A DNA stretch of 64,000 nucleotides. Origin: Escherichia coli. Lineage in GTDB: Bacteria; Pseudomonadota; Gammaproteobacteria; Enterobacterales; Enterobacteriaceae. The number at the start of each line of letters is the position of its first letter. Position 1 is the stretch's first letter. The position numbers are program-made. Below are positions 39,001 to 42,000 of the stretch, one piece after another. Location: assembly GCF_041248615.1 (NCBI RefSeq), contig NZ_CP158426.1; one strand, 5' to 3'.

Positions 39001-42000
39001 TGAACCTTATGAGCGGCATTTCAAAGAAATCGGATTTAATGAAAATACCATTAAAAAATATCTACAATGCACTAACATCCAGACAGTGACGGTGCCTGTT
39101 CCTGCGAAGTTTTTACGTGCTTCAAATGTACCGACTGGATTGCTTAATGAAATGATTGCTTATCTCAACTCGGAAGAACGCAATCATCATAATTTTTCAG
39201 AACTTTTGCTTTTTTCTTGCCTGTCTATTTTTGCCACATGCAAAGGTTTCATTACACTATTAACTAACGGTGTGCTATCCGTTTCCGGGAAAGTGAGAAA
39301 TATTGTCAACATGAAGCTGGCGCACCCATGGAAGCTGAAAGATATTTGTGACTGCCTGTACATCAGTGAAAGCCTGTTGAAGAAAAAACTTAAGCAAGAG
39401 CAAACGACATTCTCACAGATTCTTTTAGATGCCAGAATGCAGCACGCAAAAAATTTGATACGAGTAGAAGGTTCAGTTAATAAAATTGCCGAACAATGTG
39501 GTTATGCCAGTACATCTTATTTTATTTATGCGTTCCGCAAACATTTCGGCAACAGTCCGAAGAGAGTTTCTAAGGAGTACCGTTGTCAAAGGCACACCGG
39601 TATGAACACGGACAACACGATGAGTGCTTTAGCTATTTGATTATTTGCTAACGAGTAGTCAACCACACACGCTGCGTAAGAATTAAATGGGGCAGCCATT
39701 TCCTGCCCCGCGTTGTTTTTAGGCGATATATTTATTGAAATAAATAAGTGACATTCATCACATATTTATGCATTTGCATAACCCGTTGCATGATTATTTA
39801 TGATCTCAATTCGGCATTTTGTCAGTAAAATACAATATATTATTAAATATCAATAGATTAGTTGTTTATCATCGAGAAATTACTTAGTAGAACAGAAAGT
39901 AATGTCAACGCTTTATGGACTGTTATTTCCCTTTTTTTAGCTAAATCTGCTATCTATTTATGTGACTAACTTCACTTACATTCACTTATTTCTCTTCGTA
40001 AAATTACTTTGGAATTAAGTACAATAAGAAGAGGAACATTTATGAAGTCTGCATTAAAGAAAAGTGTCGTAAGTACCTCGATATCTTTGATACTGGCATC
40101 TGGTATGGCTGCATTTGCTGCTCATGCGGCAGATGATGTAAAGCTGAAAGCAACCAAAACAAACGTTGCTTTCTCAGACTTTACGCCGACTGAATACAGT
40201 ACCAAGGGAAAGCCAAATATTATCGTACTGACTATGGATGATCTTGGTTATGGACAACTTCCTTTTGATAAGGGATCTTTTGACCCAAAAACAATGGAAA
40301 ATCGTGAAGTTGTCGATACCTACAAAATAGGGATAGATAAAGCCATTGAAGCTGCGCAAAAATCAACGCCGACGCTCCTTTCATTAATGGATGATGGCGT
40401 ACGTTTTACTAACGGCTATGTGGCGCACGGTGTTTCCGGCCCCTCCCGCGCCGCAATAATGACCGGTCGAGCGCCCGCCCGCTTTGGTGTCTATTCCAAT
40501 ACCGATGCTCAGGATGGTATTCCGCTAACAGAAACTTTCTTGCCTGAATTATTCCAGAATCATGGTTATTACACTGCAGCAGTAGGTAAATGGCACTTGT
40601 CAAAAATCAGTAATGTGCCAGTACCGGAAGATAAACAAACGCGTGACTATCATGACAACTTCACCACCTATTCTGCGGAAGAATGGCAACCTCAAAACCG
40701 TGGCTTTGATTACTTTATGGGATTCCACGCTGCAGGAACGGCATATTACAACTCCCCTTCACTGTTCAAAAACCGTGAACGCGTCCCCGCAAAAGGTTAT
40801 ATCAGCGATCAGTTAACCGATGAGGCAATTGGCGTTGTTGATCGTGCCAAAACACTTGACCAGCCTTTTATGCTTTACCTGGCTTATAATGCTCCGCACC
40901 TGCCAAATGATAATCCTGCACCGGAGCAATATCAGAAGCAATTTAATACTGGTAGTCAAACAGCAGATAACTACTACGCTTCCGTTTATTCTGTTGATCA
41001 GGGTGTAAAACGCATTCTCGAACAACTGAAGAAAAACGGACAGTATGACAATACTATTATTCTCTTTACCTCCGATAATGGTGCGGTTATCGATGGTCCT
41101 CTGCCGCTGAACGGGGCGCAAAAAGGCTATAAGAGTCAGACTTATCCTGGCGGTACTCACACCCCAATGTTTATGTGGTGGAAAGGAAAACTTCAACCCG
41201 GTAATTATGACAAGCTGATTTCCGCAATGGATTTCTACCCGACAGCTCTTGATGCAGCCGATATCAGCATTCCAAAAGACCTTAAGCTGGATGGCGTTTC
41301 CTTGCTGCCCTGGTTGCAAGATAAGAAACAAGGCGAGCCACATAAAAATCTGACCTGGATAACCTCTTATTCTCACTGGTTTGATGAGGAAAATATTCCA
41401 TTCTGGGATAATTACCACAAATTTGTCCGTCATCAGTCAGACGATTACCCGCATAACCCCAACACCGAGGACTTAAGCCAATTCTCTTATACGGTGAGAA
41501 ATAACGATTATTCGCTAGTCTATACAGTAGAAAACAATCAGTTAGGTCTATACAAACTGACGGATCTACAGCAAAAAGATAACCTTGCCGCCGCCAATCC
41601 GCAGGTCGTTAAAGAGATGCAAGGCGTGGTAAGAGAGTTTATCGACAGCAGCCAACCACCGCTTAGCGAGGTAAATCAGGAGAAGTTTAACAATATCAAG
41701 AAAGCACTAAGCGAAGCGAAATAACTAAACCTTCATGCGGCGGATTTTTCCGCCGCCTTATTGAGCGAGATAGCGATGCACGTTACAGCCAAGCCCTCCA
41801 GTTTTCAATGTAATCTCAAATGTGATTACTGTTTTTACCTTGAAAAAGAGTCGCAGTTTACTCATGAAAAATGGATGGATGACAGCACTCTGAAAGAGTT
41901 CATCAAACAATATATCGCAGCGTCTGGCAATCAGGTCTATTTTACCTGGCAAGGCGGTGAACCCACTCTGGCTGGCCTGGCTTTTTTCCGTAAAGTTATT

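What the first reader, a model, noticed from the sequence alone, without database searches (positions are those of the whole stretch)
39766..39781. Perfect 16-bp palindrome TTATGCATTTGCATAA in the AT-rich ydeO-ydeN intergenic region
Perfect 7-bp arms with a 2-bp spacer about 260 bp upstream of ydeN, in a region with no annotated function. It could be a binding site for a dimeric regulator of the sulfatase operon.
Basis: seen in the sequence. Interest (0 to 1): 0.2.

Follow-up and report, generated by a model that had tools for sequence, protein, structure and literature searches.

The report
Ordinary inverted repeat in GadX-bound DNA
The inverted repeat upstream of the E. coli sulfatase gene ydeN is real but no rarer than chance, and it lies inside a stretch of control DNA already published as bound by the acid-stress regulator GadX, so it is a minor, largely explained feature.

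Summary
The sequence TTATGCA-TT-TGCATAA is at 39766-39781 as reported. It has 7-bp arms and a 2-bp non-symmetric centre, so it is not a perfect 16-bp palindrome.

Repeats of this kind are common. The window holds 96, and a shuffled copy of the 401-bp spacer contains at least one 38% of the time.

The region is not unstudied. The published K-12 GadX ChIP-exo peak P10 at ydeN (Seo 2015) maps exactly onto 39766-39791, which is the repeat plus 10 bp. Deleting gadX raises ydeN 1.5-fold. The same spacer also has published NagC operators and AraC, CRP and FlhDC binding.

The link to GadX is positional only:
- The GadX consensus is absent here (13/20, against 17-19/20 at classic sites).
- None of the 28 other GadX peaks I examined carries the half-site.

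Conservation is at the background rate:
- Both arms are intact in 4,729 of 5,426 E. coli genomes and in one cryptic Escherichia clade, with three spacer variants.
- One arm is broken in 561 genomes.
- The repeat is lost in E. albertii and absent upstream of ydeN in other genera.

Best reading: it is the core of a distal, non-canonical GadX-occupied site, and its symmetry may be fortuitous. Interest is low.

The parts
39766..39781 (.). The finding: inverted repeat TTATGCA-TT-TGCATAA (arms 39766-39772 and 39775-39781, centre 39773-39774)
   Evidence: Sequence read directly. K-12 has CT at the centre and the cryptic clade has TC. A right-arm G39776T allele is present in 561 genomes.
39766..39791 (.). 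Equivalent of the published K-12 GadX ChIP-exo peak P10 at ydeN (centre -233.5 from the TSS, signal-to-noise 13.7, repression)
   Evidence: Seo 2015, Suppl. Table 3. The coordinate offset was checked against the FITBAR NagC site coordinates and the K-12 alignment. The extracted K-12 sequence is ATGCAACAGGTTATGCAAGTGCATAA.
39785..39792 (+). Third TGCAT-core element, GTTGCATG; with TATGCATT (39767-74) and TTTGCATA (39773-80) it forms a cluster of three
   Evidence: It lies inside an 18-bp run with no polymorphism, 39785-39802.
39747..39762 (.). Distal CRP-like site AGTGA-CATTCA-TCACA (9/10 to consensus), 4 bp upstream of the repeat
   Evidence: only 3 such sites in 64 kb. All variation falls in the N6 centre. 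ydeN is a CRP SELEX target.
39928..39958 (.). Equivalent of GadX ChIP-exo peak P9 (centre -69 from the TSS)
39961..39976 (.). Proximal CRP-like site TGTGA-CTAACT-TCACT (9/10), centred about -43.5 from the TSS
   Evidence: It is conserved in E. albertii.
39975..40004 (+). ydeN core promoter CTTACA-18-TAAAAT; the TSS used by Seo 2015 maps to about 40012
   Evidence: with the TSS derived. The block is conserved in all four Escherichia sequences.
39985..40007 (.). NagC operator 'ydeN1 proximal', CTTATTTCTCTTCGTAAAATTAC
   Evidence: FITBAR Table 1. PWM score 15.2 bits.
39861..39883 (.). NagC operator 'ydeN2 middle'
   Evidence: PWM score 8.4 bits.
39819..39846 (+). Sigma-70 'constitutive promoter' TTGTCA-16-TATTAA assigned to ydeN by genomic SELEX
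   Evidence: Shimada 2014; the sequence was located.
39688..39720 (+). ydeO intrinsic terminator: G+C-rich hairpin followed by a T run
40042..41724 (+). ydeN, putative sulfatase, the regulated gene

Best explanation
The repeat is the core of the distal GadX-occupied segment of the ydeNM control region. It acts, if at all, as double-stranded DNA bound by protein, about 238 bp upstream of the ydeN transcription start and 4 bp downstream of a distal CRP-like site.

Shown in the literature for K-12: GadX, an AraC/XylS-family regulator, crosslinks over exactly this 26-bp interval and over a second one at -69, and loss of GadX raises ydeN about 1.5-fold under acid stress.

Inferred: the two GadX sites, 164.5 bp apart, co-operate (for example through a DNA loop, as AraC does at araO2-araI1) to damp the CRP-, NagC- and AraC-controlled ydeN promoter. 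The exact dyad symmetry is probably a by-product of closely spaced TGCAT cores rather than the element GadX reads.
For: - Peak P10 (1580799-1580824) maps to window 39766-39791 with no indels between K-12 and the window. The coordinate frame is confirmed by the FITBAR NagC positions 1580605 and 1580729, which land exactly on the matching sequences, and by canonical GadX motifs reappearing inside the classic peaks with the same offsets.
- Only 7% of random placements of a 16-bp element in the spacer would fall wholly inside either ChIP-exo interval.
- ydeN is in the gadX-deletion differential expression list, 8.32 to 12.62 FPKM, and the paper states that GadX binding at the ydeN promoter lowers the transcript.
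- The repeat sits in a locally conserved block, 39757-39772 and 39785-39802, with no variation in 17 haplotypes.
- It lies after the ydeO terminator and upstream of the mapped ydeN start, so a role at the DNA level is the natural one.
Against: - The GadX/GadW motif is absent: 13/20 near P10 against 17-19/20 at gadBC, gadA, gadE, gadW and slp. None of the 28 other peaks examined carries TTATGCA or TGCATAA.
- The best GadX-motif match in the whole spacer is no better than in shuffled sequence.
- The peak is weak (signal-to-noise 13.7, against 40-400 at the classic sites) and the expression effect is small at a low level.
- Arm conservation is no better than background: 1 of 14 arm positions varies against 14.5% of spacer positions in E. 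coli, 24% with the cryptic clade (binomial P = 0.38 and 0.11, my hand calculation).
- 10% of genomes carry a broken arm.
- The ChIP-exo was done on the K-12 allele (CT centre), not on this window's allele.
- Looping is pure inference.
Confidence: 0.45

Rival explanations
1. It is a chance inverted repeat in AT-rich, horizontally acquired DNA. The symmetry has no function. The weak GadX ChIP-exo signal reflects loose binding to AT-rich DNA or spreading, not recognition of this sequence.
For: - Such repeats are expected by chance (38% of shuffles of the spacer) and common in the window (96).
- The neighbouring AT repeat of the same geometry is not kept in register in the cryptic clade, which has a different palindrome 2 bp away. 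This shows how easily such repeats arise.
- Overall substitution is at the background rate, with a broken arm in 561 genomes in which ydeN is intact.
- The repeat is absent in E. albertii and other genera.
- No match to any consensus tested.
Against: - The ChIP-exo interval is flush with the repeat and fully contains it (7% by chance).
- All three substitutions seen cluster as 2 of 2 centre positions against 1 of 14 arm positions (Fisher P = 0.025, post hoc, three events).
- The arms are intact in a clade whose spacer is only 87% identical.
Confidence: 0.3
2. It is an operator for a different dimeric regulator that works next to CRP. The most concrete candidate is a CytR-type (flexible LacI-family) protein. 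The repeat and the next 10 bp carry three TGCAT cores resembling the CytR octamer GTTGCATT, directly beside a CRP-like site, so the regulator would block CRP-dependent activation.
For: - TATGCATT, TTTGCATA and GTTGCATG score 6/8, 6/8 and 7/8. Real operators fetched from K-12 (udp TATGCAAC, cdd GTTGCATA, nupG TTTGCAAT, deoP2 GATGCAAA) score 6-7/8. The motif rules come from Sernova & Gelfand 2012.
- The distal CRP-like site is 9/10, with variation confined to its centre, and CRP SELEX lists ydeN.
- TGCA cores are clustered within 70 bp (P = 0.046 window, under 0.001 K-12, 0.008 cryptic clade).
- The cryptic clade has a perfect GTTGCATT on the other side of the same CRP-like site.
Against: - The count of octamers at 6/8 or better in the spacer is at chance (7 against 5.6, P = 0.33).
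- The two cores of the repeat are 2 bp apart, closer than any described CytR arrangement (TGCAA-N2-3-TTGCA).
- The partner CRP site expected 52 bp away is only 5/10 (and direct reading).
- No paper links CytR and ydeN as regulator and target.
- The sulfatase operon has no tie to nucleoside metabolism.
Confidence: 0.12
3. It is the AraC site of ydeNM. [quoted passage not shown]
For: AraC binding upstream of ydeN and derepression in an araC deletion are reported. AraC sites usually adjoin a CRP site, as this repeat does.
Against: - AraC half-sites are 17-bp direct repeats with a 21-bp period, not a 7-2-7 inverted repeat.
- The consensus TAGC-N7-TCCATA scores no better than chance anywhere in the spacer. 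Its best matches (7/10) include the TAGC elements at 39936-39954 and a site at 40008-40024, none at the repeat.
- The paper that maps the site (Stringer 2014) is not held, so the position could not be read.
Confidence: 0.05
4. It is the unlisted third ('distal') NagC operator, which would loop with the published middle and proximal NagC operators.
For: FITBAR names the two sites 'proximal' and 'middle', which implies a distal one. The 23-mer centred on the repeat is the fifth-best NagC score in the spacer.
Against: It scores 2.4 bits against 14.5-24 bits for the training sites, and 15.2 and 8.4 bits for the two known ydeN operators. The AT repeat at 39727-39749 scores higher, at 5.4. NagC arms are 9 bp apart, not 2.
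Confidence: 0.03

Closest known systems
GadX/GadW (AraC/XylS family) binding sites of the E. coli acid-resistance network, as mapped by ChIP-exo (Seo et al. 2015, PMC4918353)
   Same: The published in vivo GadX interval coincides with the repeat. The DNA is AT-rich. A second GadX interval lies nearer the promoter. The downstream gene is modestly repressed by GadX.
   Different: There is no match to the 20-bp GadX/GadW motif, which is asymmetric. The signal is weak. No other GadX peak examined shares the half-site.
AraC araO2-araI1 distal/proximal operator pair (repression by looping)
   Same: A far-upstream site (about -238) paired with a promoter-proximal site for a regulator of the same protein family, next to CRP sites.
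   Different: Looping is not shown here. AraC half-sites are asymmetric 17-mers. The resemblance is in architecture only and rests on my own knowledge of the ara system.
CRP-CytR-CRP cassettes of deoP2, udp, cdd and nupG (Sernova & Gelfand 2012, PMC3454398)
   Same: TGCA-core octamer-like repeats lie directly beside a strong CRP-like site, with octamer match levels equal to real operators.
   Different: There is no good second CRP site 52-53 bp away. The two cores of the repeat are closer together than any described arrangement. Octamer counts are at chance level, and there is no experimental link to CytR.
7-2-7 and 8-2-8 inverted repeats of NarL/FixJ-family regulators (NarL/NarP heptamers; the EvgA box of the neighbouring ydeP and safA-ydeO promoters)
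   Same: Identical geometry: 7-bp arms with a 2-bp centre. The location is beside the EvgA-controlled ydeP-safA-ydeO cluster.
   Different: The sequence does not fit. In register, by direct reading, about 3 of 7 per NarL heptamer and 4-5 of 8 per EvgA half. The best scan hits are out of register.

Membership tests
GadX/GadW binding site | GadX occupies the DNA in vivo | tested here: met
   The occupancy itself is from Seo 2015, Suppl. Table 3. Tested here was the mapping: P10 equals window 39766-39791, verified by the K-12 alignment, the FITBAR coordinates and extraction of the K-12 sequence.
GadX/GadW binding site | Match to the 20-bp motif AKGKCTGWTWTTWWYMYVAK | tested here: not met
   13/20 within P10 +/-15 bp, against 17-19/20 at gadBC, gadA, gadE, gadW and slp. 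The best match in the spacer is 16/20, at 39735-39754, equal to shuffles.
GadX/GadW binding site | Downstream gene changes when gadX is deleted | not testable with these tools
   Published: ydeN goes from 8.32 to 12.62 FPKM, log2 0.60, in the gadX deletion at pH 5.5.
Operator of a homodimeric helix-turn-helix regulator (generic) | Dyad symmetry beyond chance expectation | tested here: not met
   The symmetry is present, but 38% of spacer shuffles hold at least one such repeat (6% if the 2-bp centre is fixed in advance), and there are 96 in the window.
Operator of a homodimeric helix-turn-helix regulator (generic) | Arms conserved while the centre is free across relatives | tested here: inconclusive
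   The centre varies at 2 of 2 positions and the arms at 1 of 14 (Fisher P = 0.025, three events, post hoc). Set against that, the arm-broken allele is in 561 genomes and the repeat is lost in E. albertii.
Operator of a homodimeric helix-turn-helix regulator (generic) | The same repeat recurs upstream of other genes in the genome | not testable with these tools
   There is no other match with up to 2 mismatches in the 64-kb window, and none with up to 2 mismatches at the 14 specified positions in 80 kb of K-12 DNA.
CRP-CytR cassette | A CRP site flanks the operator | tested here: met
   AGTGACATTCATCACA at 39747-39762 scores 9/10, is one of only 3 such sites in 64 kb, and varies only in its N6 centre. 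CRP SELEX lists ydeN.
CRP-CytR cassette | A second CRP site 52-53 bp from the first | tested here: not met
   No site at 7/10 or better at that position. The 16-mer centred 52 bp away, 39799-39814 TATGATCTCAATTCGG, matches 5/10 by direct reading.
CRP-CytR cassette | Two GTTGCATT-like octamers at an allowed spacing | tested here: inconclusive
   Scores of 6/8, 6/8 and 7/8 equal those of real operators, but the count of such octamers is at chance (P = 0.33), and the two cores of the repeat are closer than TGCAA-N2-3-TTGCA.
NagC/Mlc operator | Match to the 23-bp NagC matrix (TTATTT-N9-AAATAA type) | tested here: not met
   2.4 bits, against 14.5-24 bits for training sites and 15.2 and 8.4 bits for the two published ydeN operators.
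AraC half-site pair | TAGC-N7-TCCATA half-sites as direct repeats 21 bp apart | tested here: not met
   The pair score over the repeat is 11/20, against a shuffle median of 12. The best single half-sites (7/10) are at 39936-39954 and 40008-40024.
NarL/EvgA-type 7-2-7 or 8-2-8 site | Heptamer TACYYMT or octamer TTCYTACA in each arm | tested here: not met
   The best scan hits (10/14 and 10/16) are out of register with the repeat. The in-register fit is poor by direct reading.
Hairpin-forming element (terminator, attenuator, cruciform) | A stable stem-loop, more stable than shuffled sequence | tested here: not met
   -3.1 and -3.3 kcal/mol on the two strands, z = -0.64 and -0.23. A 2-nt loop is impossible, so only 6 pairs form. 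No T run follows, there is no Rfam hit, and the repeat lies downstream of the real ydeO terminator.

The most novel reading that the evidence does not exclude
The repeat and the adjacent GTTGCATG form a CytR-type (or other still unassigned CRP-partner) operator beside a distal CRP site. In that case the ydeNM sulfatase operon would be controlled by an anti-activation module of the deoP2/udp kind, in addition to NagC, AraC and GadX. The GadX ChIP-exo signal would then mark a shared multi-regulator hub rather than a GadX-specific site.
Probability: 0.1. Interest if true: 0.4.

Novelty: already known. Interest (0 to 1): 0.13.

Why it matters
It matters little as it stands. The result adds one detail to a known picture: the distal GadX ChIP-exo site of ydeN has an unusual, motif-less, symmetric core that sits beside a strong CRP-like site.

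ydeNM encodes a putative sulfatase and its maturase, and one paper speculates a role in mucin-glycan use in the gut. At least five regulators are reported at this spacer: GadX, NagC, AraC, CRP and FlhDC. Knowing which bases each one reads would help explain when E. coli switches the operon on.

The natural G39776T allele, present in about 10% of sequenced genomes, is a ready-made test of whether the symmetry matters.

Tried and rejected
- **GadX consensus:** a scan of the spacer gave a best match of 16/20 at 39735-39754, equal to shuffles.
- **Shared sequence among GadX peaks:** 29 of the 41 K-12 GadX peaks were extracted, and none but P10 has the half-site.
- **NagC:** a matrix built from 8 published operators (excluding the ydeN ones) recovers both known ydeN operators but gives 2.4 bits on the repeat.
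- **AraC:** the half-site consensus is at chance level everywhere in the spacer.
- **Other consensus sequences around the repeat:** EvgA, NarL/NarP, NsrR (12/22), DnaA box (7/8) and FNR gave no convincing in-register fit.
- **Hairpin or cruciform:** weak, with z about -0.6 or weaker.
- **Known RNA families:** none within 38500-40500.
- **Promoter element:** no promoter-like site overlaps the repeat.
- **Small ORF:** a mechanical 26-codon GTG ORF at 39748-39828 spans the repeat; I did not examine it further and have no evidence that it is a gene.
- **More divergent 'E. coli' genomes:** a search using the cryptic-clade spacer as query found none closer than 86.6%.
- **Divergent YdeO homologues:** the 79%-identical ones sit next to IS66 with no homologous spacer.
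- **Literature by sequence:** no paper prints the site.
- **Papers not held:** Stringer 2014 (AraC site position). The Tramonti 2008 42-bp GadX consensus is not quoted in the papers I could read; I did not try to open that paper itself.
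Full report
**Observation.** The window is E. coli. It is 100% identical to strain NRZ14408 over the spacer and about 96% identical to K-12. 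ydeP, safA, ydeO, ydeN and ydeM all lie on the + strand.

Bases 39766-39781 read TTATGCATTTGCATAA. The reverse complement differs at the two central bases. The element is therefore a 7-bp inverted repeat around a 2-bp centre, not a perfect 16-bp palindrome. It ends 261 bp before the ydeN ATG (40042), in a 401-bp spacer of 31% G+C.

**Chance.** The repeat is not statistically remarkable.
- The window holds 96 inverted repeats with arms of at least 7 bp and spacers of 0-10 bp. Shuffled windows hold about 46.
- 38% of dinucleotide shuffles of the spacer contain at least one. The figure is 6% if the 2-bp centre is fixed beforehand.
- A second repeat of the same geometry, TATTTATT-GA-AATAAATA, lies at 39729-39746. 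Two in 401 bp is unusual (P = 0.004, post hoc).
- That upstream repeat is not kept in register in a cryptic Escherichia clade, which has a different palindrome 2 bp away. This illustrates how readily such repeats form in AT-rich DNA.

**What is already known about this DNA.** RefSeq annotates nothing in the spacer, but the literature does.

Seo et al. 2015 (PMC4918353) mapped two GadX ChIP-exo peaks at ydeN in K-12:
- P10 at 1580799-1580824, centred -233.5 from the transcription start, signal-to-noise 13.7, classed as repression without RpoS.
- P9 at 1580632-1580662, centred -69.

These are NC_000913.2 coordinates. The ydeN ATG is 1582524 in version .3, and the offset at this locus is 1976. 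I checked the offset three ways:
- The FITBAR paper's NagC site positions 1580605 and 1580729 fall exactly on the matching sequences.
- The implied transcription start (window 40012) lies 7 nt after a TAAAAT -10 hexamer.
- The same offsets put canonical GadX motifs inside the classic gadBC, gadA, gadE, gadW and slp peaks.

K-12 and the window align without indels from the repeat to the ATG. P10 therefore equals window 39766-39791. It begins on the first base of the repeat and ends on the last base of a third TGCAT core.

Only 7% of random placements of a 16-bp element in this spacer would fall wholly inside either GadX interval. In the gadX deletion, ydeN rises from 8.32 to 12.62 FPKM.

The same spacer carries other published features:
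- Two NagC operators, at 39985-40007 and 39861-39883.
- AraC binding in the presence of arabinose, with derepression in an araC deletion.
- A FlhDC SELEX peak.
- A sigma-70 SELEX promoter, TTGTCA-16-TATTAA, at 39819-39846.
- A CRP SELEX assignment to ydeN.

**Is the repeat what GadX reads?** Probably not as a palindrome.
- The published GadX/GadW motif is asymmetric. Within P10 +/-15 bp it matches only 13/20, the lowest class among 29 peaks I extracted from K-12. The gadBC, gadA, gadE, gadW and slp peaks give 17-19/20.
- No other examined peak contains TTATGCA or TGCATAA, and TGCAT cores are nearly absent from them.
- The best GadX-motif match anywhere in the spacer (16/20 at 39735-39754) equals what shuffles give.

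P10 is therefore a weak, non-canonical GadX site.

**Conservation within E. coli.** Allele-specific 30-mers, in which any mismatch at 39756-39781 blocks the search seed, were run against 5,426 complete E. coli genomes:

| Allele | Genomes |
|---|---|
| Arms intact, TT centre | 1,904 |
| Arms intact, CT centre (K-12 type) | 2,825 |
| Right arm G39776T (TTATGCATTTTCATAA) | 561 |

Together these cover 5,290 of the 5,373 genomes that have the spacer. ydeN is still intact in two genomes carrying the broken arm.

**Conservation beyond E. coli.**
- A cryptic-clade Escherichia (MOD1-EC7003), whose spacer is 87% identical, has TTATGCA-TC-TGCATAA.
- E. albertii has no ydeO upstream. It keeps the core promoter but has TATTGCAACTGGATCG at the aligned position.
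- Leminorella, Citrobacter werkmanii, Cedecea, Mixta, Grimontia and others have ydeN homologues (67-84% protein identity in that set) with unrelated upstream DNA and no half-sites.

**Substitution rate.** In 17 haplotypes, 58 of 401 spacer positions vary within E. coli, and 97 of 401 when the cryptic clade is included. The arms vary at 1 of 14 positions and the centre at 2 of 2.
- The element as a whole evolves at the background rate. The binomial probability of at most one variable arm position is 0.38 (E. coli only) and 0.11 (with the cryptic clade); these are my hand calculations.
- The skew of changes toward the centre is suggestive (Fisher P = 0.025), but it rests on three events and is post hoc.

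**Other readings tested and rejected.**
- NagC: 2.4 bits, against 14.5-24 bits for real sites.
- AraC half-sites: at chance level, with the best matches (7/10) at 39936-39954 and 40008-40024.
- EvgA, NarL, NsrR, DnaA and FNR consensus sequences: no in-register fit.
- Hairpin: -3.1 kcal/mol, z = -0.64.
- Rfam: no hit.
- Promoter: none overlaps the repeat.

**Something more solid found nearby.** Two 9/10 matches to the CRP core TGTGA-N6-TCACA lie in this spacer:
- A distal site at 39747-39762, 4 bp upstream of the repeat.
- A proximal site at 39961-39976, centred about -43.5 from the transcription start.

The whole 64-kb window has only three such sites. All four polymorphisms inside the two sites fall in their N6 centres and none in the 20 half-site positions (Fisher P = 0.014). 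Each GadX interval abuts one of these sites.

**A speculative alternative.** The repeat plus the next 10 bp carries TATGCATT, TTTGCATA and GTTGCATG. These match the CytR octamer GTTGCATT at 6/8, 6/8 and 7/8, the same level as the real udp, cdd, nupG and deoP2 operators fetched from K-12. TGCA cores are also clustered.

Several points count against the CytR reading:
- Octamer counts are at chance (P = 0.33).
- The partner CRP site 52 bp away is poor (5/10).
- The two cores of the repeat are closer together than any described CytR arrangement.
- No paper connects CytR to ydeN as regulator and target.

**Verdict.** The sequence is real, but ordinary as a palindrome. It coincides with an already published GadX-occupied site in a densely regulated promoter region.

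The claim that the symmetry is functional is unproven, and it is weakened by the common broken-arm allele and by the loss of the repeat in E. albertii.

My best explanation (confidence 0.45) is that it is the core of a distal, non-canonical GadX site that contributes to mild repression of ydeNM. Co-operation with the proximal site is inferred only.

Noticed in passing
window 39747-39762 and 39961-39976: Two near-consensus CRP-like sites (9/10) lie in the ydeO-ydeN spacer, out of only three in the whole 64-kb window. All polymorphisms fall in their N6 centres. The proximal one sits at a class-II-like position (about -43.5) relative to the ydeN start and is kept in E. albertii. This fits ydeN being listed as a CRP SELEX target. 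Each GadX ChIP-exo interval abuts one of them.
   Followed up: partly
window 39767-39792 (in K-12, also the positions equivalent to 39811-39818 and 39829-39836): There is a cluster of TGCAT-core octamers resembling the CytR half-site GTTGCATT: three in this strain, five within 70 bp in K-12, and a perfect GTTGCATT on the other side of the CRP-like site in the cryptic clade. The clustering is significant, but the octamer count is at chance.
   Followed up: partly
window 39729-39746: A second inverted repeat, TATTTATT-GA-AATAAATA, has the same 2-bp centre and lies 36 bp upstream, just before the distal CRP-like site. It is not kept in register in the cryptic clade, which has ATTTCATGAAAT instead. 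It is the third-best NagC-matrix score in the spacer (5.4 bits).
   Followed up: partly
window 39776 (loci L033, L035): A right-arm G-to-T allele (TTATGCATTTTCATAA) is present in 561 of 5,426 complete E. coli genomes, with ydeN still annotated as intact. I did not determine which lineage carries it.
   Followed up: partly
L009 (JARKOR010000108.1): A contig deposited as a 'Candidatus Nanosynbacter' metagenome-assembled genome carries E. coli ydeO-ydeN DNA (spacer 96% identical, YdeN 99%). It looks like E. coli contamination of the bin.
   Followed up: no
L006-L008: In these E. coli variants the ydeO reading frame (271 aa, altered N-terminus) directly follows a fimbrial chaperone gene, and ydeP and safA are missing. 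This is an apparent deletion that removes the EvgA-controlled promoter region. The ydeO-ydeN spacer is unchanged.
   Followed up: no
L003-L005: A 79%-identical YdeO homologue (273 aa) lies after fimbrial usher and adhesin genes and before an IS66 element. The DNA downstream has no homology to the ydeO-ydeN spacer.
   Followed up: no
L031 (E. coli O104:H4, NZ_CP064387.1): ydeN is annotated as a truncated pseudogene (C-terminus missing) in this O104:H4 genome, although its upstream spacer is intact.
   Followed up: no
window 40009-40041: The mechanical ORF list extends ydeN 11 codons upstream to a TTG at 40009. RefSeq starts it at the ATG at 40042, which is preceded by AGAGGA, and the mapped transcription start (about 40012) makes the longer form unlikely.
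   Followed up: no
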